From positions 3,954 to 67,953 of the forward strand of contig JBBDPN010000002.1 of NCBI GenBank assembly GCA_040876265.1: a stretch of 64,000 nucleotides of DNA, given 5' to 3'. The notes below the pieces were generated by a model. It did not search any database and was not told the DNA's origin. It saw only the letters and a list, made by a program, of their open reading frames with translations. Positions 1 through 46,270 of the stretch are shown here, piece after piece. The position numbers were made by a program, and so were the translations under genes. This DNA comes from Candidatus Woykebacteria bacterium (lineage in GTDB: Bacteria > Patescibacteriota > Microgenomatia > Woykebacterales > RBG-16-39-9b). The number at the start of each line of letters is the position of its first letter. Position 1 is the first letter of the stretch.

Positions 1-910
1 CCTTTCAGGCGAATCAACACAAATAGATACTCCCTCCGGTCTCTCTTCCACAGCCGATGTTGAGAAAAGTACTTCAGTTTACGACCCGAAAATAATTGGT
101 GTAGTATCCACCAATCCTTCTGGCGAAGTGCTAGGCGAAGCTGCCAAAGACTTTCTTAACAATCCGAAACCAATTGCGATCATTGGACGGGTGCCGGTGA
201 AAGTTTCTGCTGAGAATGGAGATATTGCTCCAGGAGATCCGCTGACCTCCTCCAGCACGCCTGGAGTAGCCATGAAGGCTACGCAGAGCGGCCCTATTGT
301 AGGTAAGGCGTTGGAATCCTTCGACGGGGCTCAGGACGACATAGGTCGGATAATGGTGTTTGTGAGTGTGGGATGGTTCGTAGCTCCTCTGGATTCTGGA
401 TCTGGTATGGAGGATCTAGGCAGTATGAGCAGCCTGCATATCGAGGGCCTAACATCCAACACCATCAATACTCAACTACTGTTCGTCGGTGATAGGCAGC
501 TATCCATGGGCCCAGCCGGCGAGCTGGTGGTGGACGGCGACGTGAACGTGCTGGGCGACGTCACTATCGAAGGTGATTTAAACATAGATGGAGCTGTGCT
601 TGCTAAGTCATTAAGAACTAAAAGTATAGAGATTGATATACCCGCACCGGATCCAACAACTGGCAAATCCGCCGCAACTATTGGTGACGCTACGATTGTC
701 GCTGGACAGACTGAAATAGTAGTCAAGACCACCGCTGTGAAACCTGATAGCAAGATTTTCGTCACTGCCACCAGTACAACTAGCGGCCAGATCCCCTACG
801 TAGTTGAAAAACTAGCCGGTGAAAGCTTCAAGGTGAGGATCGACTCCCCAATCGGAACAGCTATTAAGTTCGATTGGTGGATAATCCAAGTGGCTAGTAG
901 TGGCAACTGA
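1..910 (+). CDS. 3' part of a large secreted beta-helix-like surface protein (5' end outside window). Paralog of the 11378..14119 gene.
   Basis: The frame is open from nt 2 with no stop until 910. The last ~250 aa align with the C-terminus of the 11183..14119 ORF (YD..IGVVST..GRVPVKVS.ENG.I.PGD.LTSSSTPGV.MKAT). Both end in an AIKF(D/T)W(W/F)I(I/L) motif. Confidence 0.6.
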   Translation, partial: LSGESTQIDTPSGLSSTADVEKSTSVYDPKIIGVVSTNPSGEVLGEAAKDFLNNPKPIAIIGRVPVKVSAENGDIAPGDPLTSSSTPGVAMKATQSGPIVGKALESFDGAQDDIGRIMVFVSVGWFVAPLDSGSGMEDLGSMSSLHIEGLTSNTINTQLLFVGDRQLSMGPAGELVVDGDVNVLGDVTIEGDLNIDGAVLAKSLRTKSIEIDIPAPDPTTGKSAATIGDATIVAGQTEIVVKTTAVKPDSKIFVTATSTTSGQIPYVVEKLAGESFKVRIDSPIGTAIKFDWWIIQVASSGN

Positions 911-1259
911 CGTATCGTCAACTAAAGAGTTTTTCTTTAAAATGAGGTCGTTATGGAAAAAATGCTACAGCACCTTTGTACCTACTTTGGGACTAGCTGA
1001 TTATGGAGATGGTATTGAGGAGGCGGTTAAAAGAGAAATACCAGTTGATGATCCCAGCAAAGAACTGGTAACTGAGCTCCAAGTTTAATTTTCTTGATGT
1101 CCAAGCCCCCAGTAGTTAGACCGAATGAACTCTTGCGTGCTGCCTCCATCTCCGTCCATCCAAAACCAACCCCACCTGGAACTCTTCGTGCAATTCTCAA
1201 ACAAACCGAGATTTCTGCCGAAAAGCTCAAAAAGCTTCTACCGGAGTCGTCAAGCCCAT

Positions 1260-1283
1260 GACAAGGCCTGGCCCTGTCAAGGG
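1260..1283. repeat. REP-like palindromic element (REP1, half copy) GACAAGGCCTGGCCCTGTCAAGGG just 3' of RAYT gene 1
   Basis: Same 24-mer recurs at 1997-2020. Core CCCTGTCAAGGG also at 5581-5592 and 36847-36856. Confidence 0.7.
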
Positions 1284-1291
1284 TTGATAGG

Positions 1292-1981
1292 TCAGTCTTT
1301 TTCGATAAGTAGGTGTCCGAGTATTTCCTCGGGCTCCACGTCGTAGGTTTCTACAAAATCTTTATAATTGGAATATTTATTTAGATTTAAGTTACCAAGT
1401 TTGGCAGGTTCAAAAAGTGACAAGATGGGCTGTGTATTTATCCAACTAGCTTTCCTCTCCCCTATATAAATAGGGTAGCTGGAGTAAGGGTACTCTGCCA
1501 GAAAGCCTTTGGTCAAACTAGGATTTTGGTGTATATAGCGCGATAGATGCAGTAGGTAATTGTCGTTGTCAACGAGCGTGGCCCTATACGGCCCTTGGAA
1601 TAAATGACCGACCCGATTATAGCGCCTATTAAAATACATAGAGTAAGTTGTCGATAACCGCAGTAGTAACTTTTTCATTCCTTCTTTCCCCTTTTGTCGA
1701 ACCATTAAGTGAAAATGATTAGGCATCAGGCAGTAACAGAACAGATCGATTTCTCCGCTTAGTGTGGATATAGGTCTGACACGATTGGGGACAAATCCAG
1801 TGAGATCTGTCAGTGGGTGCTTTTCTGGATTGGCGTTTGGCTCCAGATAAAACTTTAACAGGTGTAGAAACACTCGATAATCTTGATCGTCTAGAAAGAT
1901 CCTTCTCTTTTCTACCCCCCGATTATAAACATGATAATGACCATTTTCTACGTATTGCTTGATCCTATTCTTTGCGGGCAT
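1292..1981 (-). CDS. REP-associated tyrosine transposase (RAYT, IS200/IS605 TnpA-like Y1 HUH transposase)
   Basis: HUH motif LMPNHFHLM, RVGHLFQGPY and catalytic-Tyr block YIHQNP match the RAYT/IS200 TnpA layout. Start taken at the internal Met (MPAKNR) because the upstream 23 codons are encoded by the REP palindrome. Confidence 0.75.
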   Translation of the reverse strand: MPAKNRIKQYVENGHYHVYNRGVEKRRIFLDDQDYRVFLHLLKFYLEPNANPEKHPLTDLTGFVPNRVRPISTLSGEIDLFCYCLMPNHFHLMVRQKGKEGMKKLLLRLSTTYSMYFNRRYNRVGHLFQGPYRATLVDNDNYLLHLSRYIHQNPSLTKGFLAEYPYSSYPIYIGERKASWINTQPILSLFEPAKLGNLNLNKYSNYKDFVETYDVEPEEILGHLLIEKD

Positions 1982-1996
1982 AATCCCATTATCTTT

Positions 1997-2047
1997 GACA
2001 AGGCCTGGCCCTGTCAAGGGCCTTGGATGACAGGGCCAGGCCTTGTC
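1997..2047. repeat. REP1 full copy: 19-bp stem palindrome GACAAGGCCTGGCCCTGTC..GACAGGGCCAGGCCTTGTC
   Basis: Perfect 19-nt inverted repeat read directly. Sits immediately 5' of RAYT gene 1 and forms a direct repeat with 1260-1283. Confidence 0.8.
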
Positions 2048-2116
2048 CATTGGGGGGTTGACAGGGTATATTTTGGAGGGTTAGTGTTTAATTGTAAGGA
2101 TTAATTTGAGCGCATA

Positions 2117-5554: not shown

Positions 5555-5577
5555 CCCACCAACCCAAGAAAGGGACG

Positions 5578-5591
5578 GACCCTGTCAAGGG

Positions 5592-5593
<2 letters not shown>
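5578..5593. terminator. Palindrome GACCCTGTCAAGGGTC between convergent genes; solo REP1-core copy, likely bidirectional terminator hairpin
   Basis: Perfect 6-bp stem with 4-nt loop. Shares the CCCTGTCAAGGG core with the RAYT-flanking REP1. Overlaps the obg stop codon. Confidence 0.5.
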
Positions 5594-10478: not shown

Positions 10479-10848
10479 TGAAATCGCAACTCAACCTTTT
10501 CTCTTAGCCGCCTTACGAGCAGCACCTCAACTTACCGGCCTTGGAATAGTCAGCGTCAAAAATTGAGGTTTTCGAGCCGACTTAAAAAGGAATTTTTCAC
10601 GTCCGATCCGCCAACTGGCGGAGAGTTTGAAAAATTAGGTGAGAAAACCGATATTTTAGCTGGAGGTTCCCGGCCGGCAGTTTTGGCTCCACCTTTGCTG
10701 TCAAAGGTGGAAAAAGAAATCTTTCCACGAATTTGACAAGCAAGCAGACTACAGGTTAAAATTAAGGGTATAAATAGGTATAATTATACCCTGCTAAGGG
10801 TACAATACGCAGGGTGTAATCCTGCGGATTATACCTTAGGACCTACCC

Positions 10849-11260
10849 ATGGAGCTGCCCAACTCTAGCTTCTCTGTAAGCGAGATCATCTCGCAGTACA
10901 GAGAGTACTTAAAATCTCATAACTACTCTACCCCCACGGTCAAAAACTATTTATCTGACCTGCGTCATCTTTTTGTTTGGCTCTCAGAACATCACGGTGA
11001 ATTTCGCTTCTTTCATATAAACGAAGCAAGTCTGCGCACTTACCGTTCTTACCTAAAAGAAAAATTTCGTGCCAGACCCTCCATCGGCGCGCGACGTCTC
11101 TCTTCCCTGCGCAAATTCCTCACTTGGGCAGCTGGGAAAAACTTCATTACACCACAGCTTTACCAGTCAGTAACGCCGGTACTTGAGGCTCTCGAGCGCG
11201 AGCCAGCTACCCCAATTACTCTGGTCCCAGGCAGCGGCATTGCTGGGCAAGCCAAAAAGG
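10849..11260 (+). pseudogene. Tyrosine recombinase/integrase N-terminal SAM-like (core-binding) domain only; catalytic domain absent
   Basis: The first ~110 aa align with the XerC/XerD N-terminal domain (TVKNYLSDLRHLFVWL ... RRLSSLRKFLTWA). After the C9 tract at 11263 the frame reads low-complexity junk to a stop at 11454. Confidence 0.5.
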
Positions 11261-11377
11261 AACCCCCCCCCTGTCCCGGACAAAATACATCAAAAAATAA
11301 TACACCATATCAAACACACTCGACCAGGCTGGTACCATCGCTACCACCAGCGGGATTGGGCCAGCACTTTGCACACC

Positions 11378-14119
11378 GTGATAATGATCCTCTTTGTGAT
11401 CGCCGTTGGATCTTTGATCCTCTACACCGAAGTGATCAAACCGCAGCTGGATAGTACTCGAGATCAATTTGCCGAAGATCTGGGCGACGTGCTAGCCGCC
11501 GCTTCCCCACCGCGGATACTTTCTTTTCAAGGTAGGCTGACAGACAGCTCTGGAGATCCGGTCACCAGTGCTACCGACGTGGTTTTCAAAATCTATGACG
11601 CGCGAACTGGCGGTACTCTGCTTTGGACATCAAAAACTTGGTCCGTAACTCCGGATTCCAATGGCATTTTCTCGGTTTGTCTTGGCGGCCAAGACACTAC
11701 TGATGACTGTCTGCTCAATGGTGTCGCTGACACCGCTATCCCCTCTACTCTATTTTCCGAAAACGCAGCTTTGTATCTTGGTGTCACCGCCGGAAGCGAC
11801 AGTGAAATGACGCCTCGCCAAAGAATCGCTTCTGTTTCTTACGCCTTAAATTCAGATACTTTGGACGGCTTCCACGGCTCCCAGTCCCCTGGTGCGAACC
11901 AAGTACCGGTGCTTGACGGCAGTGGGAACCTGGCCTTCGCCGGAGCCGCGACCATAAGTACTGGTAGTTCTGGCGCCTTAACCTTGGACTCTGCTTCTGG
12001 AACAGTTGGTCTCGGGTCTGGTGATTTGTTTTTAACAACCGGTCAGACTTCTACTTTTACTTCCAGTACCTCACTTATCACCGCGGACAATGTCTTTGTG
12101 ATTGGTGCCTCAACTGGTACTTTTGTTCAGATGGACGCTCAATCACTTCCCATCCACACGGGTGATATAACAGGTGCGGGCAAATTAATCGGCGTGCGAT
12201 CTTTGTTTGATGATATTGCTGGCAACACCAGCAGAAGGACCCTTGCATCAGTACGTAATTTTGAATCTAGTCTTACCACTATCAGCTATGCCCAGGCGGG
12301 AATCACCATAACTAACTATGCGGGTCTTTGGATAATTGACCCGGAAATGGATGGAGGTGCAAACGACACTATAATCACCAATCCTTACGGTATCTATATT
12401 GAAGATTTCAGCACTAGCGAGGGTGGAACATTTACCAACACGCCCCGCGCAATTTATCAAGCTGGTACAGATGATTACAATATCCTCGCTGGCCAGACCC
12501 GAATCGGTGGCACCAGCGACCCAGCCTCTGGCATCGAGTTGGATGTGACTGGTGACGCAAACGTATCCGGCAGTTATTACCAAGGTGGCACCCAAGGTAT
12601 TACTGCCAATTGCGGTGCCAGCGAATTCCTCCAAGACCCAACTGTCTCCGGCGGTATTGTGACTGCAGGAACCTGTGCCTCAGCTGGAGGTAGTGGCGAG
12701 AGTTTCTTTTCGTTTCTCACCAGCACCAAGACCGGCGCTGGTTATCAGTTTTCGGCGACCGGCCAGGTAAATTCAAACTCGACCGATTTTACGCCAAATA
12801 ACACCGATGGCTCGGTCCAGGCAAATTTTGCCGGCTATGTCTTTGTCACCGCCACCGTCAATTTCGAGTCATATGATGACTCCACCACAGTCACCGCAGT
12901 TGAGGTAAATGGATCCGTGGTAGCTCAAGACAGACTAAGTTACAGCAACGACGAAACAGACATAATTAATTACATCAGCCAGACTGTCACCTGGGCTGGG
13001 GCAGTGGCCGATGGCGATGATATCAGCGTGGATATTCCGACCTTGTCTGGTGCGACCGTCAACAATGATGGAACGGCGGGCGAACAAGCCGGTACACTAG
13101 TAGTCCAGAAGATAAGAACCGGGGCCGATGTAGCCGAGATGTATCCAACGGCTGATCCTACACTTAATGCAGGAGATGTGGTTAGTATAGACCCCTCTCT
13201 TCGCGGCGGAGTAAAAAAATCGGATAAACAATACGATTCACAAGTACTTGGGGTTGTCTCAACTCTTCCCAGTCTAGTGATCGGATCTCCGATTGGGACA
13301 GGTAGTGGGCCTCATCACACGGCAGTTGCTTTGACCGGTCGAGTCCCAGTGAAAGTTTCGGGTGAGAATGGGCCGATTGAGCCCGGAGACTTGCTCACTT
13401 CTTCGTCCACACCAGGTGTGGGAATGAAAGCAACCCGTGCAGGGTACGTAATCGGTCGGGCTCTCACCAGCCTCAGCTGTCCGGGCGTTAACACCTCGGA
13501 GGTGGATAGAACGGTCTCGCCAGATGGTGGCAACCCCTGCCAAGGCACGGTCGTAGTTTTCGTAGGTACCCACTACGCCAACCCCGCTCAACTGGATGAG
13601 TCTGGAGATCTATCCTCAACCTTCGATTGGGATCTGGAAAATGAAGAGAACTTGAAAGCGCTGGCGAAATTGCGAGTGGACAAAGATAACAATATAGTTA
13701 CTTCTATATCAGATGGTAGCAGGTTTATCTGGGAAAACTCTCTCGGTGAGGCAGTCGCTTGGGTAAACAGCGCTGGCGAAGCTTTTTTCCAGAAAGTAAC
13801 CGCCACTGTGGCTGATTTTGGCAAGCTGGTCTTCGGTGAGGCCGTGGTGAAAAAAGAAGCCAAAACGGCCGGGGAAGCCTCCTTCCAGACCAACGAAACC
13901 GAAGTACTGATCAGATCAGACAAAGTGACAGAAGATTCCTTGATAAATCTAACCCCAACTACCAAAACTGGTGGCGTCTCACTCTATGTCAAAGAGAAAA
14001 AGCCTGGTGAAGGCTTCGTAGTAGCTTTAGAGAGGAACTCCGGCGATCTCCCCGACCAAGCTACCGCTTCGGCAACGCAAGCAATCAAATTTACCTGGTT
14101 CATCCTCAACCAAGAATAA
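11378..14119 (+). CDS. Large (~910 aa) membrane-anchored, Gly/Thr/Ser-rich beta-helix-like surface protein with conserved C-terminal domain ending in FTWFIL
   Basis: Long ORF open from 11183. The likely start is GTG 11378 or ATG 11384, just before TM helix MILFVIAVGSLILY. The C-terminal 250 aa are paralogous to the 1..910 gene. Confidence 0.6.
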   Translation: MIMILFVIAVGSLILYTEVIKPQLDSTRDQFAEDLGDVLAAASPPRILSFQGRLTDSSGDPVTSATDVVFKIYDARTGGTLLWTSKTWSVTPDSNGIFSVCLGGQDTTDDCLLNGVADTAIPSTLFSENAALYLGVTAGSDSEMTPRQRIASVSYALNSDTLDGFHGSQSPGANQVPVLDGSGNLAFAGAATISTGSSGALTLDSASGTVGLGSGDLFLTTGQTSTFTSSTSLITADNVFVIGASTGTFVQMDAQSLPIHTGDITGAGKLIGVRSLFDDIAGNTSRRTLASVRNFESSLTTISYAQAGITITNYAGLWIIDPEMDGGANDTIITNPYGIYIEDFSTSEGGTFTNTPRAIYQAGTDDYNILAGQTRIGGTSDPASGIELDVTGDANVSGSYYQGGTQGITANCGASEFLQDPTVSGGIVTAGTCASAGGSGESFFSFLTSTKTGAGYQFSATGQVNSNSTDFTPNNTDGSVQANFAGYVFVTATVNFESYDDSTTVTAVEVNGSVVAQDRLSYSNDETDIINYISQTVTWAGAVADGDDISVDIPTLSGATVNNDGTAGEQAGTLVVQKIRTGADVAEMYPTADPTLNAGDVVSIDPSLRGGVKKSDKQYDSQVLGVVSTLPSLVIGSPIGTGSGPHHTAVALTGRVPVKVSGENGPIEPGDLLTSSSTPGVGMKATRAGYVIGRALTSLSCPGVNTSEVDRTVSPDGGNPCQGTVVVFVGTHYANPAQLDESGDLSSTFDWDLENEENLKALAKLRVDKDNNIVTSISDGSRFIWENSLGEAVAWVNSAGEAFFQKVTATVADFGKLVFGEAVVKKEAKTAGEASFQTNETEVLIRSDKVTEDSLINLTPTTKTGGVSLYVKEKKPGEGFVVALERNSGDLPDQATASATQAIKFTWFILNQE

Positions 14120-14126
14120 CAAACCT

Positions 14127-14146
14127 ACACACCAGGGGTGTCAATA
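14127..14146. repeat. REP2 palindromic element ACACACCAGGGGTGTCAATA, 3' of RAYT gene 2
   Basis: Contains hairpin ACACC-AGG-GGTGT. An identical copy lies at 14818-14837 on the other side of the RAYT gene. Confidence 0.75.
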
Positions 14147-14150
14147 TAGA

Positions 14151-14801
14151 TTAATCAAGGGTTTGATGTTTGGCAAGCTCCAAGGTTCTACCATAATCTG
14201 CTTGGTCCAAGACGAAAGATCTGTATTTATTTTTAGAAGCTCCTGGAAATAAATCCAGGGTCAATTCGGTATTCACTACACCCAAAGAATTTTTTCCTAT
14301 ATACTCCAGATACGACGACCACTCGTAGGTTGACAAATCATTAGTAAGTCCCCCTACAAGTGGGTTCAAATGAATATATCTCGAAACGTGAAGCAGTAGC
14401 TCGTCAGATTCGATTTTCACTGCTTTAAACGGCCCTTGGAACAGGTGCCCGACTCTCTTGTGTTTTGTGTTGAAATATTTTGTATAACTATTTGACAACC
14501 TGCCAATAAAAGTAGATATTCCATTTTCGGTGTTTTGCCGAAGGAGCATGTGAAAATGGTTTGGCATCAAGCAGTAAACGTAGATTTCAACCAGATTTTG
14601 AGCCGGTGTTTCGTGATCTTTTATCATTTTATGGGATTTAAAAGAAAATCTAGTTGGAACATTGGTTTTTAGATAATAAATCAAAGTATTATAAAAACGA
14701 CGATAGTCTCTTCTATCGTAAAAAATATTTCTTTTTTCTACACCCCTATTGAAAACGTGATAAATACCCCCATCTCCCAATGCTTCTTTACGATATGGCA
14801 T
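14151..14801 (-). CDS. REP-associated tyrosine transposase (RAYT) copy 2
   Basis: IYHVFNRG, YCLMPNHFHMLL (HUH), RVGHLFQGPF and YIHLNP blocks. Paralog of 1292..1981 at about 50% identity by eye. Confidence 0.75.
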   Translation of the reverse strand: MPYRKEALGDGGIYHVFNRGVEKRNIFYDRRDYRRFYNTLIYYLKTNVPTRFSFKSHKMIKDHETPAQNLVEIYVYCLMPNHFHMLLRQNTENGISTFIGRLSNSYTKYFNTKHKRVGHLFQGPFKAVKIESDELLLHVSRYIHLNPLVGGLTNDLSTYEWSSYLEYIGKNSLGVVNTELTLDLFPGASKNKYRSFVLDQADYGRTLELAKHQTLD

Positions 14802-14817
14802 ACCTATAATTTAAACT

Positions 14818-14837
14818 CACACACCAGGGGTGTCAAT
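14818..14837. repeat. REP2 palindromic element, 5' of RAYT gene 2
   Basis: CACACACCAGGGGTGTCAATA, a direct repeat of 14127-14146. Confidence 0.75.
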
Positions 14838-14904
14838 ACAACATTTTGATCAGACTCAAAACAAGGATGGTCTCCAAAAAGATAACTCTGGGGAAAACTA
14901 GCCC

Positions 14905-36490: not shown

Positions 36491-36864
36491 AAGATCGCTC
36501 CGTACTTCCCCACTCTTTGTAAAGGGCGGGTTCGGTACTCTCGCGTTCTGCGCTCTGCAAAGCAGAGCTTAGAAAAGTTGATCAGTTGTTCAGAATTGAC
36601 GTTCTTTTCCTACTTACATTGTCCTTGCGGCAACTGTAAGAAGGGTTCTTGCTACATGTTGAATTGTCCTCCGATTTGATCGGAGAGCAATTTGTTAAAT
36701 TGTCAAAGTGCTTGATTGGTATGTTCTCCAACGAAAAAGAGCTGGCACAAACCGAGCTCTTGCAAAGGGTCCAAATGTGCACTCAAAAATAAGTTTACAT
36801 ACCAATTCTCATTTCCGAACTCATTTTAGTTTAAAAATTATACTCTGTCAAGGGACAGCGGGTA

Positions 36865-37356: not shown

Positions 37357-37435
37357 TAGTGGTCGCGGAGCGCAAGAATACCTAAATCATCGAATTCAAC
37401 CCCGATAAAATCGGGGCCAACGAGATTATTTAGGT
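37357..37435 (-). promoter_or_regulatory. Hairpin + box element, leader copy (hairpin loop carries CCCCGATAAAATCGGGG)
   Basis: TAGTGGTCGCGGAGCGCAAGAATACCTAAATCAT...GAGATTATTTAGGTA matches the copy at 33242-33300. Confidence 0.4.
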
Positions 37436-38613
37436 ATGACGCGATCTATAGTCGCTCCACCAATAACTCTATCACCTTGGTAAAAAACTGCCGCTTGTCC
37501 CGGGGTGATCGCCCTTTCGGTCTGTTCTAACGCCACTTCTACTTCACCACTAGCCCCTTTGTGCAACTGCGCTGGAACATTTTGGGCACGGTAGCGCATC
37601 TTTACCTCTACTTTAACTGGATATTTAGGCTCCTGTCCTTGTACCCAACTAAGATCGGTTGCAGCGAATTTATCCTTGAAAAGCGCTAGGTGTCCAAAAG
37701 GCGCTACGATCAATTTATTAGTCTTTGTATCCTTACCTGCCACGTAAAAAGGTACGGAGGCAGATACACCTAGACCCTCACGCTGACCAATAGTGTAGAA
37801 GGCTAGCCCTATGTGTTTGCCTAGCACTTCTCCCTCGATACTGACAATATCACCGTGCTTTTTATTTATTTGTTGCAGTAAAAATTCTCTTATCCGTGCG
37901 GGGCCGACAAAACAAATCCCAGTACTGTCGGGTTTGCTAGCCGTGGGGAGATTAAACTTTTTGGCCAGTTGCCTGACCTTCTTCTTTGTAAGATCCCCCA
38001 GCGGAAAAATCGTTTGGGAAAGTTGTGCCTGGCCCAATAGGTAAAGGAAATAGGATTGATCCTTTGCACGATCAAATCCTGCGAGCAGTTGGTACTGCTC
38101 TAAGGATTGATCCTTGTCTTTATCGATTCCAGTCGCCAGTGACCCGTTGCCAGAATTCTGATCCCTAGTCTCTGGTGTCTGGTATCTGACGCGTGCATAG
38201 TGTCCAGTCGCTATGTAGTCAAACCCCAGCTCCAAGGCTTTTTCTAGAAACAGGCCAAATTTAATTTCCTTGTTACACATTACGTCCGGATTGGGGGTAC
38301 GACCAGCTTCGTATTCCTTATAAAAATAGTCTATAACCGTGTCGCGGTACTTCCTTTCAAAATCAAAGACGTGAAATGGGATTTCTAGCGTTGCTGCTAC
38401 TTTAGCAGCGTCTGCTTGATCCACTTCGGCGCTGCAATATGGTCCTTCGCTCCAGCAGCGCATGTACGCTCCCTCCACAGCGTAACCAGCCTTTTTCAGC
38501 AATGCAGCCGCCACAGAGCTATCCACCCCACCGCTCAAAGCTACAAGGACACGCTTCTTACTTGTGTCTTTGTGTTTATATGAAGTTCTGATTTGCCCAT
38601 TCAGTCTTGTCAT
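37426..38613 (-). CDS. mnmA: tRNA-specific 2-thiouridylase MnmA
   Basis: PP-loop VLVALSGGVDSSVAA. Conserved catalytic Cys region. Length 395 aa. Confidence 0.9.
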   Translation of the reverse strand: MTRLNGQIRTSYKHKDTSKKRVLVALSGGVDSSVAAALLKKAGYAVEGAYMRCWSEGPYCSAEVDQADAAKVAATLEIPFHVFDFERKYRDTVIDYFYKEYEAGRTPNPDVMCNKEIKFGLFLEKALELGFDYIATGHYARVRYQTPETRDQNSGNGSLATGIDKDKDQSLEQYQLLAGFDRAKDQSYFLYLLGQAQLSQTIFPLGDLTKKKVRQLAKKFNLPTASKPDSTGICFVGPARIREFLLQQINKKHGDIVSIEGEVLGKHIGLAFYTIGQREGLGVSASVPFYVAGKDTKTNKLIVAPFGHLALFKDKFAATDLSWVQGQEPKYPVKVEVKMRYRAQNVPAQLHKGASGEVEVALEQTERAITPGQAAVFYQGDRVIGGATIDRVIPK

Positions 38614-42434: not shown

Positions 42435-42474
42435 AATAAAAATTGAAATTTCTAGCCATCTTGATGGCTAGAAT
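42435..42474 (-). terminator. Rho-independent terminator (11-bp stem TTCTAGCCATC/GATGGCTAGAA followed by a U-run on the minus strand)
   Basis: Hairpin read directly. Overlaps the stop of the 42468..43052 gene. Followed on the minus strand by AUUUCAAUUUUUAUUU. Confidence 0.6.
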
Positions 42475-43052
42475 GTGGCTAATCCGAAGAAACTAAAGAT
42501 GAAATAGATAATGGTGATGGTCAAGAAAGTGCCGATGGTAATTTCGGTAATATCGTGCGCCTTTAGGTAAAACCGTGACCAAGCCACCAGAGGTAAAAGT
42601 AGGACCAAATAAAAGAGCTCCACCGATACAGCTAGTATCGCAGTGATCACCATTACCGTAACAAGCTCCATGTGAACTGAAATTTTGAAAGTAGAAGCTA
42701 AAAGTAAGTTAACCACGCCCAAAGCGAGAAATACCAACCCTAGAGCTACTATCAACCGCGGTGCCTCGAAGTAAAAAGCCGCTAGAGAAGCTACCGATGC
42801 CAGTAAAACCCAAGCGATATACGCGTTTCTTCTCTCTGCTCCCTTTGGTGACCAAAGTGAGGAAACCTTTCCTTTTTTATATTGGTAGTAAAGTACTGCG
42901 GCCGGCAGTGCCGCCACGAAAAAGGTAACTATCGCCAAAAGTACTTTTGCTGAAACTGAAATTTGCTGAACGGAAATGGCCAAGATAGCGGTAACAAAAG
43001 CAGTAAAAACCGGATTGAATATCTTTGTTACCGCAGCGGCAAAGAGGTGCAT
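42468..43052 (-). CDS. Polytopic membrane protein (about 6 TM), unknown function
   Basis: 194 aa, hydrophobic throughout. Preceded by repeat copy A. Confidence 0.45.
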   Translation of the reverse strand: MHLFAAAVTKIFNPVFTAFVTAILAISVQQISVSAKVLLAIVTFFVAALPAAVLYYQYKKGKVSSLWSPKGAERRNAYIAWVLLASVASLAAFYFEAPRLIVALGLVFLALGVVNLLLASTFKISVHMELVTVMVITAILAVSVELFYLVLLLPLVAWSRFYLKAHDITEITIGTFLTITIIYFIFSFFGLATF

Positions 43053-43072
43053 GACCCAATTTTATCATATCC

Positions 43073-43252
43073 GCCTTACGAGCACAGCCGTCTTGGACTG
43101 GCAAAAATGCGAAGAGGAAACGGAAACTGAACCTGAGCTTGTCGAAGGTGAATTTCCGAGGAAGTCCCGAGTATGTTTGCCTCAGTTCAAAGGCTAGCGC
43201 AGTCGGCGGCCGCTTTGGTGCCACCTTTGCGGCCAAAGGTGGCAAAGAAAAT
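43073..43252. repeat. ~180-nt repeat element, copy A (conserved 55-nt block + variable middle + CCACCTTTGCGGCCAAAGGTGG hairpin)
   Basis: Near-identical 55-mer GAGGAAACGGAAACTGAACCTGAGCTTGTCGAAGGTGAATTTCCGAGGAAGTCCC and terminal hairpin are shared with 46093-46270. Confidence 0.7.
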
Positions 43253-44584: not shown

Positions 44585-46057
44585 TTAATCGAAAAACCCA
44601 ACTTGACCTTCGGCTTGTTTGACGATCTGTTTTGGTTTTTCACTGCTAGGGATACCAGCTTCCGAAGGCCAAATTTTTACTACGCCAAACACTCCATCGT
44701 ACCCTGGCTCTATCACAATATCACCCTCCCTCACCTTCCTCACTCCCTCGACTATTCTGTGGACAGAAGCCTGTTTTTCCAAATCAGAGAGAGGCGCTTT
44801 CATCAAGATATTCATCTCAGAATCAAAATAGTTTACTAACTTCTTGTATTCCTCAATGACTTTTGGCGAAGTCACCGGCGAGCCAACAGCCTCGGATATT
44901 ATTTCTATCAAAGGCACGAGGTTTTTATATTTTGGCCGGTTTCCTGGAGTAAAACCCTCTGGTCTATTTTTATCCGCCAGCTGCTCAACCCGGTGCATTA
45001 CGCCGATGGTTAACCGCCGTCTGCATTTTGGACAAATCATTCCTGCCTTAGCAGTCTCGGACGGCGAGTGACGAACGTTGCAGTTTCTGTGCCCAGTGAA
45101 ATGATATTTACCTTCTTCCGGAAAAAATTCAAGAGTAAATGCTACTTTTGACTCCCTGCTCTTTTGCGAGTGGGCTTGATCCAATTTGTAGATCGCTTCG
45201 CGCTCTGCGACCACTTCGTGGGCTAAGGTCTCCACAGGAAGTCCGCGTTTACCACGCTCGGATAAAGCATTTTGCGATTCATCGCGGAACCTTTTTGGAG
45301 ACGAATTAGATTGTTGATCGCCGAGCACAGCCGACTGACTTTTCAACGCTGCCAGCAACCCATCGTAGCTAAAATCGCTGTCAAAAACGGTCAGCTCTCG
45401 GCTCATCTTTGGTGCGCTGTGAGCATCGGAAAAGGAAACTATTGATCGGCCATCAAGCTCTGGTATTCGCCAATTCATCGCCGGATCGCTAGACAATCCC
45501 GTTTCAATAGCGTAAATATATTTGGCTAGGTCTCCAAAAGCTTCATCAATGCTGTCAAAACCAGAGTTAGAACCGTACAAACTAAACCACGGCGTCCAAG
45601 CGTGGGCCGGGATAAAAATAGTCTTTTCGTTTACTTGCAATGCCATTTCGAGAAGTTGCTTTGCACTTAACCCAACGATTGGCCGCCCATCTGCTTTTAA
45701 GTTTCCAATTTTGCCAAGAGCTTCATTAAATTTTTCTACGCCACTTTTTTCCGAAAAATAAAGCAAACAGTGGATCCGCCTTACCTTTCCCCCTTGGGAA
45801 TAGATGCAGGAAATCTCAGTACCCAAAACGTAATGAGCGCCGCCGTATTCATAAAAACCGGAAGATTCGGATTCTTTTAATTTCTTCTTGGTTTCTTCCC
45901 ACCAAACCGGATGAGTAAAATCTGCACTGGAAAGAAGGCTAATGCCTTTGTATTTGGCCCATTCTGAAAGTGTATCGAAGTTTAAATTGCGGCTGGTGGC
46001 ACGAGCGTAAGCGGAATGAAGGTGTAAGTCGGCGACGAATTTAGCCATCATCGCCAT
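44585..46057 (-). CDS. Endonuclease Q-like (PHP-type metal site + C-terminal zinc finger) nuclease
   Basis: N-terminus ADLHLHSAYARA...GISLLSSADFTHPVWW matches EndoQ DLHIHS...GTGD..HP.W. C-terminal CPKCRRRL Zn finger. Confidence 0.5.
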   Translation of the reverse strand: MAMMAKFVADLHLHSAYARATSRNLNFDTLSEWAKYKGISLLSSADFTHPVWWEETKKKLKESESSGFYEYGGAHYVLGTEISCIYSQGGKVRRIHCLLYFSEKSGVEKFNEALGKIGNLKADGRPIVGLSAKQLLEMALQVNEKTIFIPAHAWTPWFSLYGSNSGFDSIDEAFGDLAKYIYAIETGLSSDPAMNWRIPELDGRSIVSFSDAHSAPKMSRELTVFDSDFSYDGLLAALKSQSAVLGDQQSNSSPKRFRDESQNALSERGKRGLPVETLAHEVVAEREAIYKLDQAHSQKSRESKVAFTLEFFPEEGKYHFTGHRNCNVRHSPSETAKAGMICPKCRRRLTIGVMHRVEQLADKNRPEGFTPGNRPKYKNLVPLIEIISEAVGSPVTSPKVIEEYKKLVNYFDSEMNILMKAPLSDLEKQASVHRIVEGVRKVREGDIVIEPGYDGVFGVVKIWPSEAGIPSSEKPKQIVKQAEGQVGFFD

Positions 46058-46092: not shown

Positions 46093-46270
46093 TCGCTGTG
46101 CGAGCACGGCGTTTTTGAACTTGCTGAAAAGCAGAGAGGAAACTGGAACTGAACCTGAGCTTGTCGAAGGTGAATTCCAGAGGAAGTCCCAAAGCTTTTC
46201 AGCTTAGTCCAACAGTCAGCACAGCCCAGCGACAGTTTTGGTTCCACCTTTGCTGCCAAAGGTGGAAACA
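46093..46270. repeat. ~180-nt repeat element, copy B
   Basis: GAGGAAACTGGAACTGAACCTGAGCTTGTCGAAGGTGAATTCCAGAGGAAGTCCC ... TTTTGGTTCCACCTTTGCTGCCAAAGGTGGAAA. Immediately 5' (minus sense) of the EndoQ-like gene. Confidence 0.7.

What the first reader, a model, noticed from the sequence alone, without database searches (positions are those of the whole stretch)
1..2060. REPtron 1: RAYT transposase bracketed by a 19-bp-stem REP palindrome, directly downstream of a giant surface-protein gene
The 1292..1981 ORF has the HUH (NHFHLM) and Tyr (YIHQNP) blocks of REP-associated tyrosine transposases. It is flanked on both sides by the same palindromic unit (GACAAGGCCTGGCCCTGTC...), with copies at 1260-1283 and 1997-2047. 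Its CCCTGTCAAGGG core also occurs as solo copies at 5581-5592 (between convergent genes, overlapping the obg stop) and 36847-36856, and inverted at 2053-2064. That is the signature of REP/RAYT systems, in which the RAYT mobilises its own REPs. The same module geometry recurs at 14.1-14.8 kb after the paralogous giant gene.
Basis: partly seen in the sequence, partly recalled or inferred. Interest (0 to 1): 0.55.

Follow-up and report, generated by a model that had tools for sequence, protein, structure and literature searches.

The report
Hairpin-bracketed RAYT-like nuclease gene
A gene for a single-strand-DNA-cutting enzyme of the REP-transposase type sits between copies of its own small DNA hairpin in a candidate-phyla-radiation bacterium; most sampled relatives share this layout, so it is a real member of a known kind of tamed mobile element, with unusual details.

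Summary
The core observation holds. ORF 1292-1981 (minus strand, 229 aa) is a Y1 HUH enzyme: Pfam Y1_Tnp scores 38 bits (cut-off 23), and the best fold match is the E. coli RAYT-REP complex 4ER8. An identical 25-nt unit lies on both flanks (1259-1283, 1996-2020), with an inverted arm at 2028-2047 forming a 20-bp hairpin. A 44%-identical paralog (14151-14801) is bracketed by a different 26-nt direct repeat.

The "REPtron" reading is only partly supported. The protein fails NCBI's RAYT model (34 bits; cut-off 80). Its motifs (NHFH, FQ, YIHQNP, SS) fit the published TnpA-Y1 subclass 2.1 ("TIRYT"), reported as lacking REPs. There is no GTAG foot. The 64-kb window holds one degenerate solo copy (5567-5591).

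The bracket is nevertheless a family trait. In 48 of 68 related metagenomic loci the two flanks share at least 12 identical bases, against 2.6% for neighbouring genes. Stems are lineage-specific. Both genes are syntenic in a relative whose ortholog of the first is 64% identical, and 20 extra copies, some inside genes, occur in 350 kb of flanks.

The hairpin carries the −35 box of a leaderless-type promoter. I read it as a domesticated REPtron/TIRtron-like system. Cleavage and mobilisation are inferred, not shown.

The parts
1292..1981 (-). RAYT-like Y1 HUH nuclease/transposase gene 1 (229 aa; HUH = NHFH at residues 88-91, catalytic Tyr149 in RYIHQNP)
   Evidence: Y1_Tnp 38.2 bits; invariant residues; AF2 pLDDT 84; top PDB fold match 4ER8
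1996..2020 (-). Proximal upstream copy of the 25-nt repeat unit. It holds the 19-nt near-palindrome GACAGGGCCAGGCCTTGTC (gene orientation) and the -35 box.
   Evidence: D6, 100% identical to 1259-1283
2028..2047 (-). Distal upstream copy in inverted orientation. With 1997-2016 it forms the 20-bp-stem hairpin (a REPIN-like doublet).
   Evidence: I9; -26.5 kcal/mol, z -7.3
1259..1283 (-). Downstream copy of the 25-nt unit, 8 nt after the gene's stop codon. It is direct relative to the proximal upstream copy and a perfect 20-nt terminal inverted repeat with 2028-2047. Its TGA (1259-1261, + strand) is the stop codon of the convergent 55-aa HicA-like ORF.
   Evidence: D6, I8
1988..2017 (-). Promoter-like site: TTGACA, 18 nt, GATAAT (11 of 12 matches). 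The -35 box lies inside the proximal palindrome, and the -10 box ends 6 nt before the ATG, the geometry of a leaderless mRNA.
   Evidence: Family-wide, a -10-like hexamer ends about 6 nt before the ATG in 29 of 73 genes.
2058..2066 (-). CCCTGTCAA half-site upstream of the doublet. It is conserved in the 82%-identical ortholog locus L009. Its role is unclear and may relate to the divergent Wzy-gene promoter region.
5567..5591 (+). Degenerate solo copy (GAAAGGGACGGACCCTGTCAAGGG; 19 of 25 positions match the unit). It sits in the 37-nt gap between the convergent metallo-beta-lactamase-fold gene and obg. It resembles the L010-type palindrome (loop ACGGA). The site is absent in the syntenic L010, where the two genes overlap.
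   Evidence: (D6)
14151..14801 (-). RAYT-like Y1 HUH gene 2 (216 aa, 44% identical to gene 1; NHFH, YIHLNP, SSY)
   Evidence: Y1_Tnp 39.8 bits
14813..14838 (-). Upstream copy of the module-2 26-nt repeat (gene orientation TATTGACACCCCTGGTGTGTGAGTTT). It has a 5-bp hairpin ACACC/GGTGT and holds the -35 TTGACA.
   Evidence: (D12)
14121..14146 (-). Downstream copy of the module-2 repeat (direct, 24 of 26 identical). It starts 2 nt after the stop codon of the convergent 978-aa ORF.
   Evidence: (D12)
14808..14836 (-). Promoter-like site of module 2: TTGACA, 17 nt, TAAATT (10 of 12 matches). The -10 box again ends 6 nt before the ATG.

Best explanation
Each module is a REPtron/TIRtron-like unit of a candidate-phyla-radiation (CPR) bacterium. 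It is a vertically inherited, probably domesticated class-2 Y1 HUH single-strand-DNA nuclease/transposase gene that sits between copies of its own cognate DNA hairpin.

SHOWN
- The protein has the Y1 HUH fold with invariant HUH and Tyr residues.
- Its gene is bracketed by near-identical hairpin units, with an extra inverted copy upstream in module 1.
- The bracket is a family-wide trait with lineage-specific stems. The larger protein clade shares a conserved RGG-N5-CCY hairpin apex. The clade of gene 2 uses a CACC...GGTG-type hairpin.
- Both genes keep the same neighbours in a relative whose ortholog of gene 1 is 64% identical.
- A few extra copies of such hairpins lie elsewhere on relatives' contigs, in intergenic gaps and in linkers of real genes.
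- The upstream hairpin overlaps the -35 box of a promoter whose -10 box ends 6 nt before the ATG.

INFERRED (by analogy with E. coli TnpA-REP and IS608/ISDra2 TnpA)
- The enzyme binds the hairpin when it is extruded in single-stranded DNA, for example on the lagging-strand template.
- It cuts next to the hairpin through a 5'-phosphotyrosine link at Tyr149, with the HUH histidines holding the metal ion, and it can rejoin the strands.
- This activity seeds, maintains and homogenises the hairpin copies.
- Binding at the promoter-embedded copy feeds back on the gene's own expression.
For: PROTEIN
- Y1_Tnp scores above the Pfam cut-off for both genes.
- N88, H89, H91, R148, Y149, N153 and S167/S168 are invariant in 22 relatives.
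- The AF2 model has pLDDT 84. The top PDB match is 4ER8 (RAYT bound to a REP hairpin, E = 1.6e-5), followed by ISDra2 and IS608 TnpA.

REPEATS IN THE WINDOW
- Exact 25-nt and 24/26-nt flank repeats, with none expected by chance.
- A stable hairpin, z = -7.3.

FAMILY TRAIT
- 48 of 68 loci share at least 12 nt between the 120-nt upstream and downstream flanks. The controls give 9 of 668 for mismatched locus pairs and 6 of 235 for other ORFs.
- Perfect stems of at least 7 bp occur in 48% of upstream and 56% of downstream flanks, against 5% of control windows.
- The RGG-N5-CCY apex occurs in 35 of 73 upstream and 37 of 70 downstream flanks, against 3 of 300 controls.
- Hairpin class follows protein clade.

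CONCERTED EVOLUTION
- All three copies in the window carry the same pair-breaking A-to-G / T-to-C variant. Both upstream copies in ortholog locus L009, and those in L010, keep the perfect stem.
- The two L075 paralogs are about 80% identical in the gene but 94-97% identical in the flanking repeat.

VERTICAL INHERITANCE
- L010 keeps the order Wzy/TPR gene, RAYT, large gene, and also obg and the second Y1 gene.
- The family is rare on plasmids (26 of 72,556 records, all under 33% identity) and nearly absent from phages.

DISPERSAL
- 20 extra copies lie in 350 kb of flanking sequence.
- They include intergenic solos (L053), a DprA linker, LepA and a Wzy-like gene.
- The window's solo copy at 5567-5591 is absent from the syntenic L010.

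PROMOTER
-.
Against: - No biochemical evidence exists. Binding, cleavage and mobilisation are inferred.
- In this window dispersal is almost nil: one degenerate solo copy for module 1 and none for module 2.
- The whole genome could not be examined.
- The protein fails the curated RAYT equivalog model, and its sequence signature matches a subclass for which REPs were reported absent.
- Flank orientation is not uniform across the family: 26 loci direct only, 10 inverted only, 12 both, 20 with no exact repeat of 12 nt or more.
- L010's ortholog of gene 1 has no detectable downstream copy.
- The module-2 hairpin is weak: 5 bp, -3.1 kcal/mol.
- The position of the hairpins at the promoter and just after the stop codon is also what a purely regulatory element would show.
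Confidence: 0.6

Rival explanations
1. The palindromes are purely cis-regulatory parts of the gene. The upstream copies would be an operator overlapping the -35 box, bound as double-stranded DNA by a dimeric regulator, possibly the protein itself. The downstream copy would be a terminator, an mRNA-stabilising hairpin or a second operator. The enzyme's real substrate would lie elsewhere, and the hairpins would not be mobilised.
For: - The -35 box lies inside the proximal palindrome and the -10 box ends 6 nt before the ATG in both modules. Similar geometry appears in 29 of 73 relatives.
- Downstream copies begin 0-40 nt after the stop codon.
- The window shows almost no dispersal.
- Between the window and L009 the palindromes are conserved while the spacer between them has diverged.
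Against: - Identical or near-identical copies occur far from the gene on relatives' contigs, including inside coding regions of dprA, lepA and a Wzy-like gene, where an operator or terminator makes no sense.
- The hairpins have no T-run.
- The catalytic HUH and Tyr residues are invariant. So the enzyme is active on some DNA, and the only conserved DNA partner in view is the hairpin.
- A pair-breaking substitution has spread to all three copies. That points to copying rather than selection for a stable stem.
Confidence: 0.2
2. Each module is an autonomous IS200/IS605-type insertion sequence. The two flanking hairpins in direct orientation would be its left and right subterminal ends, and the whole ~0.8-kb unit would transpose through a single-stranded circle.
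For: - It has a Y1 HUH enzyme.
- Hairpins lie on the same strand at both ends: 26 of 48 repeat-bearing loci are direct only.
- Unit size is about 0.7-0.8 kb.
- Two modules occur in 64 kb.
- L075 carries two paralogous units 4 kb apart with near-identical flanks.
Against: - The two window copies are only 44% identical and have unrelated flanks.
- No further copies or fragments occur in the window.
- Both units sit at the same chromosomal positions in L010, whose ortholog of gene 1 is 64% identical.
- The Tyr motif is Y---NP rather than the IS200 Y---Q, and the protein is about 80 aa longer than IS200 TnpA (table).
- The family is rare on plasmids and phages.
- Most protein clusters were seen on a single contig.
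Confidence: 0.1
3. The flanking repeats arise by chance, low complexity or an assembly artefact around a palindrome.
For: The sequence is a metagenome-assembled contig, and palindromes can confuse assemblers.
Against: - None of 100 shuffles gave any match.
- The same architecture appears in independent assemblies from many samples: L009, L010 and 48 of 68 further loci.
Confidence: 0.01

Closest known systems
REPtron: RAYT / TnpA-REP with REP/REPIN sequences (E. coli, Pseudomonas; Nunvar 2010, Bertels & Rainey 2011, Ton-Hoang 2012, Messing 2012; structure 4ER8)
   Same: - Y1 HUH fold with a Y---NP tyrosine motif; 4ER8 is the best solved fold match.
- Low-copy gene kept at a fixed locus.
- Gene bracketed by cognate palindromes, including an inverted doublet like a REPIN.
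- Each paralog has its own repeat family.
   Different: - No 5' GT[AG]G foot.
- The hairpin apex in the clade of gene 1 is RGG-N5-CCY.
- It scores below the NCBIfam RAYT cut-off.
- It has about 75 extra C-terminal residues and an insertion of about 27 aa after helix A.
- Flanks are mostly direct repeats.
- Very few dispersed copies are seen, whereas classic REP hosts have tens to hundreds.
TnpA-Y1 subclass 2.1 (Quentin et al. 2018, PMC6006769) = RAYT group 1 (Bertels et al. 2017, PMC5581495) = TIRYT/TIRtron (Di Nocera et al. 2013, PMC3733652)
   Same: - Motif signature NH[YF]H / FQ / Y[IV]H[LQ]NP plus a proximal tail with an SS motif, and a length near 230 aa.
- The nearest non-CPR relatives (Legionella and Sporomusa plasmids) have the 2.1 architecture of Y1_Tnp plus a Bac_DnaA_C-like HTH.
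- Low-copy flanking repeats, some self-complementary.
- Module 1 has a perfect 20-nt terminal inverted repeat (I8).
   Different: - The CPR proteins lack the distal HTH domain.
- There is no GGGGWSAS motif. Module 2 has GGGGTGTC (7 of 8), and module 1 has nothing similar.
- Module 2 and most relatives have direct, not inverted, flanks.
- Quentin et al. found no REP-like structures for subclass 2.1, whereas here hairpins flank most family members.
IS200/IS605 insertion sequences (IS608, ISDra2, IS200)
   Same: - Y1 HUH enzyme; second-best fold matches.
- Hairpins near both ends on the same strand.
- A hairpin close to the translation start of the transposase gene.
   Different: - The Tyr motif is Y---NP, not Y---Q.
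- The protein is longer.
- No tnpB gene.
- No multi-copy near-identical elements.
- Syntenic conservation.
Intragenic palindromic elements (Rickettsia RPEs; intragenic REPs listed by Di Nocera 2013)
   Same: Copies of the cognate hairpins in relatives lie in frame inside real genes, in the DprA linker, LepA and a Wzy-like protein. The window's own 19-mer occurs inside glyA of other CPR genomes.
   Different: Not seen in this window. Insertion, as opposed to convergence, has not been demonstrated.

Membership tests
Canonical RAYT / REPtron (TnpA-REP) | Y1 HUH core with HuH motif and Y---NP tyrosine motif | tested here: met
   NHFH and YIHQNP / YIHLNP are present. Pfam Y1_Tnp scores 38.2 and 39.8 bits against a cut-off of 23. 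The best fold match is 4ER8.
Canonical RAYT / REPtron (TnpA-REP) | Scores above the curated family model (NCBIfam NF047646 REP_Tyr_transpos, equivalog, cut-off 80 bits) | tested here: not met
   34.3 bits
Canonical RAYT / REPtron (TnpA-REP) | Gene flanked on both sides by cognate palindromic repeats | tested here: met
   Module 1: 1259-1283, 1996-2020 and 2028-2047. Module 2: 14121-14146 and 14813-14838.
Canonical RAYT / REPtron (TnpA-REP) | REP carries a conserved 5' GT[AG]G tetranucleotide at the hairpin foot | tested here: not met
   Read from the sequence. The module-1 feet are CCCTT/GACA... One module-2 copy has GTAG, but on the 3' side of the stem, and the other copy does not conserve it (GTGA).
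Canonical RAYT / REPtron (TnpA-REP) | The same repeat is dispersed in many extragenic copies across the genome | tested here: inconclusive
   The window has one degenerate solo for module 1 and none for module 2 in 64 kb. Relatives show 20 extra copies in 350 kb.
Canonical RAYT / REPtron (TnpA-REP) | Low copy number, vertical inheritance, housekeeping-like distribution | tested here: met
   There is synteny with L010. The window has two diverged paralogs only. The family is rare on plasmids and phages.
TnpA-Y1 subclass 2.1 / RAYT group 1 / TIRYT | Motif signature NH[YF]H, FQ, Y[IV]HLNP, SS-containing proximal tail, about 238 aa | tested here: met
   The proteins show NHFH, LFQG, YIHQNP (gene 1, Q for L) or YIHLNP (gene 2), SSY, and 229 / 216 aa. 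These were compared with Table 1 of PMC6006769.
TnpA-Y1 subclass 2.1 / RAYT group 1 / TIRYT | Distal C-terminal HTH domain (Bac_DnaA_C / HTH_23 / HTH_28-like) | tested here: not met
   Neither window protein has such a Pfam hit. The alignment shows they end before the HTH of the Legionella and Sporomusa relatives.
TnpA-Y1 subclass 2.1 / RAYT group 1 / TIRYT | Flanking terminal inverted repeats, many with the GGGGWSAS motif | tested here: inconclusive
   Module 1 has a perfect 20-nt TIR (I8) but no GGGGWSAS. Module 2 has direct repeats with GGGGTGTC (7 of 8).
TnpA-Y1 subclass 2.1 / RAYT group 1 / TIRYT | Phylogenetic or HMM placement with the authors' subclass profiles | not testable with these tools
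IS200/IS605 insertion sequence | TnpA of about 150 aa with DH[VI]H and Y---Q motifs | tested here: not met
   The proteins show NHFH, Y---NP and 229 aa.
IS200/IS605 insertion sequence | Subterminal hairpins at both ends on the same strand | tested here: met
   Direct flank copies occur in both modules (D6, D12).
IS200/IS605 insertion sequence | Several near-identical copies per genome; variable insertion sites | tested here: not met
   The two copies are 44% identical with unrelated ends. Their positions are conserved in L010.

The most novel reading that the evidence does not exclude
CPR (Patescibacteria) bacteria may carry a large, undescribed branch of the RAYT world. Its members are subclass-2.1-like Y1 nucleases that have lost the distal HTH domain. 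Each coevolves with a short cognate hairpin: an RGG-N5-CCY apex in one clade and a CACC...GGTG type in another. The hairpin would play three roles:
- It brackets the gene, mostly as direct repeats.
- It carries the -35 box of a leaderless promoter, which would couple enzyme binding to its own expression.
- It is copied at low frequency into these ultra-compact genomes, including in frame into linkers of housekeeping genes (glyA, lepA, dprA).
This would make the system a minimal REP-RAYT pair operating where there is almost no intergenic space.
Probability: 0.3. Interest if true: 0.6.

Novelty: new variant of a known kind. Interest (0 to 1): 0.4.

Why it matters
REP-RAYT systems are the best-studied case of a transposase tamed by its host, but they are known mainly from Proteobacteria with roomy intergenic regions.

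This family is large. A search found 313 clusters (at 50% identity) with E ≤ 1e-30 and more than 10,000 with E ≤ 1e-10.

The data show that in most of the relatives sampled the gene comes with a recognisable cognate hairpin at both ends. The hairpin changes with the protein clade, and its upstream copy sits on the gene's own promoter.

That gives a simple, testable protein-DNA pair for a subclass of Y1 enzymes reported to have no REPs and whose function is unknown. It also shows how such systems could persist in genomes of about 1 Mb.

For annotation, these genes should not be counted as ordinary IS transposases when estimating mobile-element load in CPR genomes.

Tried and rejected
- **Counting the palindrome in the source genome.** I scanned genome contigs for the 19-mer. 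The Woykebacteria genome is not in that collection. The scan gave four likely chance hits in non-CPR genomes and four hits in coding regions of CPR MAGs: glyA in three, and a small ORF.
- **Fetching more of the source contig.** The exact protein is not on record.
- **Sequence search of the PDB.** Neither the single protein nor a 22-sequence profile gave a significant hit; ISDra2 TnpA reached E = 0.19. A predicted structure was needed.
- **Rfam.** Only spurious miRNA-type hairpin hits far below threshold.
The copy at about 36.85 kb has one mismatch in a 12-mer, which is chance level. The 'inverted copy' at 2053-2064 is only 9 nt.
- **Is the core word simply over-represented in the genome?** I considered an uptake-signal-like word. 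CCYTGTCAA has 5 hits against 1.4 expected, and four of the five are at the locus. GGTGTCAA has 9 hits against 2.1 expected and remains unexplained; these may be -35 boxes read on the other strand.
- **A functional link to the neighbouring large tail-fibre-like genes or the Wzy gene.** Homologs of these lie near the Y1 gene in about 10 loci. This is compatible with shared ancestry of related genomes, and I found no mechanistic evidence.
- **IS200-like autonomous element.** Considered and judged unlikely (see rival explanations).


Full report
**Source and setting.** The window comes from a Candidatus Woykebacteria (CPR/Patescibacteria) metagenome-assembled contig. An identical 229-aa protein is recorded at NCBI as 'MAG: transposase', on a 302-kb contig. 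The window also holds an rRNA operon and tRNA genes.

**Checking the observation: module 1.** On the minus strand, ORF 1292-1981 encodes 229 aa. It carries PNHFHLM (the HUH block) and RYIHQNP (the tyrosine block).
- The ORF list shows a longer 252-aa version starting inside the palindrome. The alignment with 21 relatives places the start at MPAKN, position 1981.
- Pfam Y1_Tnp scores 38.2 bits against a cut-off of 23.
- The 25-nt unit TGACAAGGCCTGGCCCTGTCAAGGG is identical at 1259-1283 and 1996-2020.
- Its first 20 nt are perfectly complementary to 2028-2047 (D6, I8, I9). No match appeared in 100 shuffles.
- As single-stranded DNA, 1990-2055 folds into a 20-bp stem with an 11-nt loop, at -26.5 kcal/mol and z = -7.3.
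- Each 19-nt arm is itself a near-palindrome, GACARGG-N5-CCYTGTC.

**Checking the observation: the minor claims.**
- The third exact CCCTGTCAAGGG is at 5580-5591. It abuts the obg stop codon but does not overlap it.
- The copy at about 36.85 kb has a mismatch and is at chance level.
- The 'inverted copy' near 2060 is only 9 nt.

**Checking the observation: module 2.** It is real, but it uses a different repeat. ORF 14151-14801 (216 aa, Y1_Tnp 39.8 bits) is 44% identical to the first gene. It lies between direct 26-nt copies of AAACCTACACACCAGGGGTGTCAATA at 14121-14146 and 14813-14838. The copies match at 24 of 26 positions.

**The large upstream genes.** Their C-termini are paralogous: 33% identity, E = 2e-30. 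Both are convergent with the Y1 genes. Module 2 starts 2 nt after the large gene's stop codon. Module 1 is separated from its large gene by two small ORFs.

**What the protein is.**
- Sequence searches of the PDB were uninformative.
- An AlphaFold2 model built from the alignment has pLDDT 84 and pTM 0.83.
- Its best solved match is 4ER8, the E. coli RAYT bound to a REP hairpin (E = 1.6e-5). ISDra2, IS608 and IS200 TnpA follow.
- N88, H89, H91, R148, Y149 and N153 are invariant across relatives. The catalytic apparatus is therefore under selection.
- The protein scores only 34.3 bits against NCBIfam's REP_Tyr_transpos equivalog, whose cut-off is 80.

**Classification.** I compared the protein with the published classification of the TnpA-Y1 superfamily (Quentin et al. 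2018, PMC6006769).
- The signature NHFH / FQ / YIH[QL]NP / SS, at about 230 aa, fits subclass 2.1. That subclass equals Bertels' RAYT group 1 and most of Di Nocera's 'TIRYT'.
- The authors found no REP-like structures for this subclass.
- Di Nocera described terminal inverted repeats ('TIRtrons') for it (PMC3733652).
- Bertels reported only modestly repeated flanking 16-mers, about 12 per replicon (PMC5581495).

**Closest non-CPR relatives.** The ones I could inspect are on Legionella and Sporomusa plasmids, at 28-32% identity.
- They have the 2.1 architecture of Y1_Tnp plus a Bac_DnaA_C-like HTH.
- The CPR proteins lack that distal HTH and carry an extra insertion of about 27 aa after helix A.
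- The family is rare on plasmids and almost absent from phages.

**Family size.** A search found 313 clusters (at 50% identity) with E ≤ 1e-30 and 10,441 with E ≤ 1e-10.

**Orthologous loci.**
- A Logan contig, L010, carries an ortholog that is 64% identical. It has the same gene order: Wzy_C/TPR gene, Y1 gene, large gene, then the metallo-beta-lactamase-fold gene, obg and the second Y1 gene next to the second large gene. Both modules are therefore old residents of this chromosome region, not recent insertions.
- Upstream of the L010 ortholog lie two copies of GACAAGGACGGACCTTGTCA.
- Upstream of the 82%-identical ortholog on L009 lie GACAAGGCCAGGCCTTGTC and GACAAGGCCTGGCCTTGTC.
- The outer stem GACAAGG/CCTTGTC is thus conserved while the loop changes.
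- All three copies in the window share a derived substitution that breaks a base pair. The perfect stem is kept in both upstream copies of L009 and in L010. This is concerted evolution, which is more easily explained by copying than by selection for stem stability.
- The second module in L010 is flanked on both sides by a different hairpin, CCCACC-TCGGG-GGTGGG.

**Family-wide test.** A scan of metagenome contigs returned 80 further loci at 34-53% identity.
- In 48 of 68 loci with both flanks available, the 120 nt upstream and the 120 nt downstream share an exact repeat of at least 12 nt. Of these, 26 are direct only, 10 inverted only and 12 both.
- The controls give 9 of 668 for flanks paired across different loci, and 6 of 235 for other ORFs of at least 150 aa in the same loci.
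- Perfect stems of at least 7 bp occur in 48% of upstream and 56% of downstream 60-nt flanks, against 5% of control windows.
- The sequences are lineage-specific, but a hairpin apex RGG-N5-CCY recurs in 35 of 73 upstream and 37 of 70 downstream flanks. It appears in 3 of 300 control windows.
- Members of the clade of gene 2 (N-terminus MPYR...) instead use CACC...GGTG-type hairpins. Hairpin class therefore tracks protein clade, as expected for a cognate protein-DNA pair.

**Dispersal.** In the window, the strict palindrome occurs only at the gene.
- One degenerate relative lies at 5567-5591, matching the unit at 19 of 25 positions. It resembles the L010-type unit and includes a compensatory stem change.
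- It sits in the 37-nt gap between the lactamase-fold gene and obg. In L010 those two genes overlap and the element is absent.
- The module-2 repeat has no further copy.
- Across 47 related loci I found 20 extra copies in 350 kb. These include two identical intergenic solos in L053. They also include a second paralogous unit in L075, whose gene is about 80% identical but whose flanks are 94-97% identical.
- Other copies lie inside real genes: the linker between the two DprA domains, LepA, and a Wzy_C/TPR protein.
- About half of these copies are intergenic, although these ultra-compact genomes leave little intergenic space.
- Separately, the window's own 19-mer occurs, with 25-nt identity, inside glyA of a Gottesmanbacteria MAG, and in glyA of two other CPR MAGs. 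I could not resolve whether that is an old insertion or convergence.

**Relation to expression.**
- In both modules a near-consensus promoter lies on the gene strand, with its -35 TTGACA inside the proximal repeat and its -10 box ending 6 nt before the ATG. Module 1 reads TTGACA-18-GATAAT (11 of 12 matches). Module 2 reads TTGACA-17-TAAATT.
- In the family, 29 of 73 genes have a -10-like hexamer matching at least 5 of 6 positions and ending 4-9 nt before the ATG, mostly 6-7 nt. Other ORFs show this in 61 of 348 cases.
- Shine-Dalgarno-like motifs are rare.
- This suggests leaderless transcripts, and places the hairpin where a bound protein, or an extruded cruciform, would block the -35 box.

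**Interpretation.** The best-supported reading is a domesticated REPtron/TIRtron-like system.
- A Y1 HUH single-strand-DNA nuclease is kept with its cognate hairpin. The hairpin is at once its recognition site, part of its promoter and, at low frequency, a copied element.
- The fold, the motifs, the bracket, its specificity to this family, the synteny and the scattered extra copies are shown.
- Hairpin binding, cleavage through Tyr149, copying and autoregulation are inferred from E. coli TnpA-REP and IS608/ISDra2.
- A purely regulatory role for the palindromes remains a serious rival, because dispersal in this window is minimal.
- An autonomous IS200-like element is unlikely, given the synteny, the divergence of the two copies and the motif differences.

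**Novelty.** Full-text searches found no description of RAYT/REP-type systems in CPR bacteria. One preprint merely uses the KEGG label K07491. The gene family and the general arrangement are known kinds. The following are, as far as I could find, new details:
- a systematic hairpin bracket in a subclass reported to lack REPs;
- the RGG-N5-CCY apex;
- the mostly direct orientation of the flanks;
- the embedded leaderless promoter;
- the intragenic copies.

I rate it a new variant of a known kind, of moderate interest.

Noticed in passing
window 1990-2015 (minus strand) versus L001 546-570, L006 7173-7191, L008 6285-6303: The proximal palindrome plus its flank (GACAGGGCCAGGCCTTGTCAAAGAT, 25 nt) is identical to a stretch inside the glyA (serine hydroxymethyltransferase) coding sequence of a Gottesmanbacteria MAG. 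The 19-mer is also in glyA of two other CPR MAGs. Those genes carry a second related palindrome 200 nt downstream, and L001 shows a compensatory stem change there. This could be an old in-frame insertion or convergence; it is unresolved.
   Followed up: partly
window 1094-1261 (+) and 900-1088 (+): Two small ORFs lie between the large gene and module 1. The 55-aa ORF resembles the C-terminal half of a HicA toxin (Pfam E = 4e-4, below the cut-off), which suggests a toxin-antitoxin remnant. Its TGA stop codon is the first three bases of the downstream repeat copy. The syntenic L010 lacks these ORFs.
   Followed up: partly
window 10849-11454 (+) and 11183-14119 (+): A 201-aa ORF with a phage-integrase SAM-like N-terminal domain (39 bits) overlaps, out of frame, the start of the 978-aa ORF. 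In L010 the ortholog is one 1161-aa gene (Phage_int_SAM_1 plus Gly_rich_2). The window copy therefore has a frameshift, which could be a pseudogene, programmed slippage or an assembly error.
   Followed up: partly
window 1-910 (+): The C-terminus of the first large protein nearly reaches the Pfam cut-off for K1-lyase_C (26.9 bits against 27). That is the intramolecular-chaperone domain of phage tailspikes. The 'giant surface proteins' therefore look tail-fibre-like.
   Followed up: no
window 10497-10713, 43060-43245, 46094-46268: An element of about 190 nt is present in three copies (mean column identity 69%). It ends in a 9-bp hairpin, CCACCTTTG-N4-CAAAGGTGG. Two copies lie just 5' of the minus-strand genes 42468-43052 and 44585-46057. 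Rfam gave no hit even at E ≤ 1. It may be an unknown leader RNA or a small mobile element.
   Followed up: partly
window 29391, 32045, 32507, 34960, 35351, 36036, 36669, 37400: A 17-nt hairpin, CCCCGAT-TAA-ATCGGGG, and close variants occur about eight times (15 strand-wise matches against 0.17 expected). All lie in or around the rRNA operon: inside the 23S and 16S genes, flanking the 16S gene on both sides, and just after the stop codon of ORF 37426-38613.
   Followed up: partly
window 15532, 21910, 22973, 26427, 27151, 31434, 51321: The 8-mer GGTGTCAA (TTGACACC on the other strand), which is part of the module-2 repeat, occurs 9 times against 2.1 expected. The extra sites may be -35 boxes rather than repeat remnants.
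   Followed up: no
L079 19027-19070; L081 4813-4860; L082 1223 and 2009: In related loci, copies or inverted doublets of the local cognate hairpin lie in frame inside LepA, a Wzy_C/TPR protein, a ComF-like protein and the linker between the two DprA domains.
   Followed up: partly
L075 10004-10579 and 14343-14897: Two paralogous Y1 genes lie 4 kb apart. They are about 80% identical in the coding DNA but 94-97% identical in their 34-nt flanking repeats. The repeats are therefore better conserved, or more homogenised, than the genes.
   Followed up: partly
L009, L010, L026, L033, L038, L047, L068, L071, L073, L081, L082: Homologs of the Wzy_C/TPR gene or of the tail-fibre-like large protein lie within a few kb of the Y1 gene in about ten loci. 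This may reflect shared ancestry among Microgenomates rather than a functional link.
   Followed up: partly
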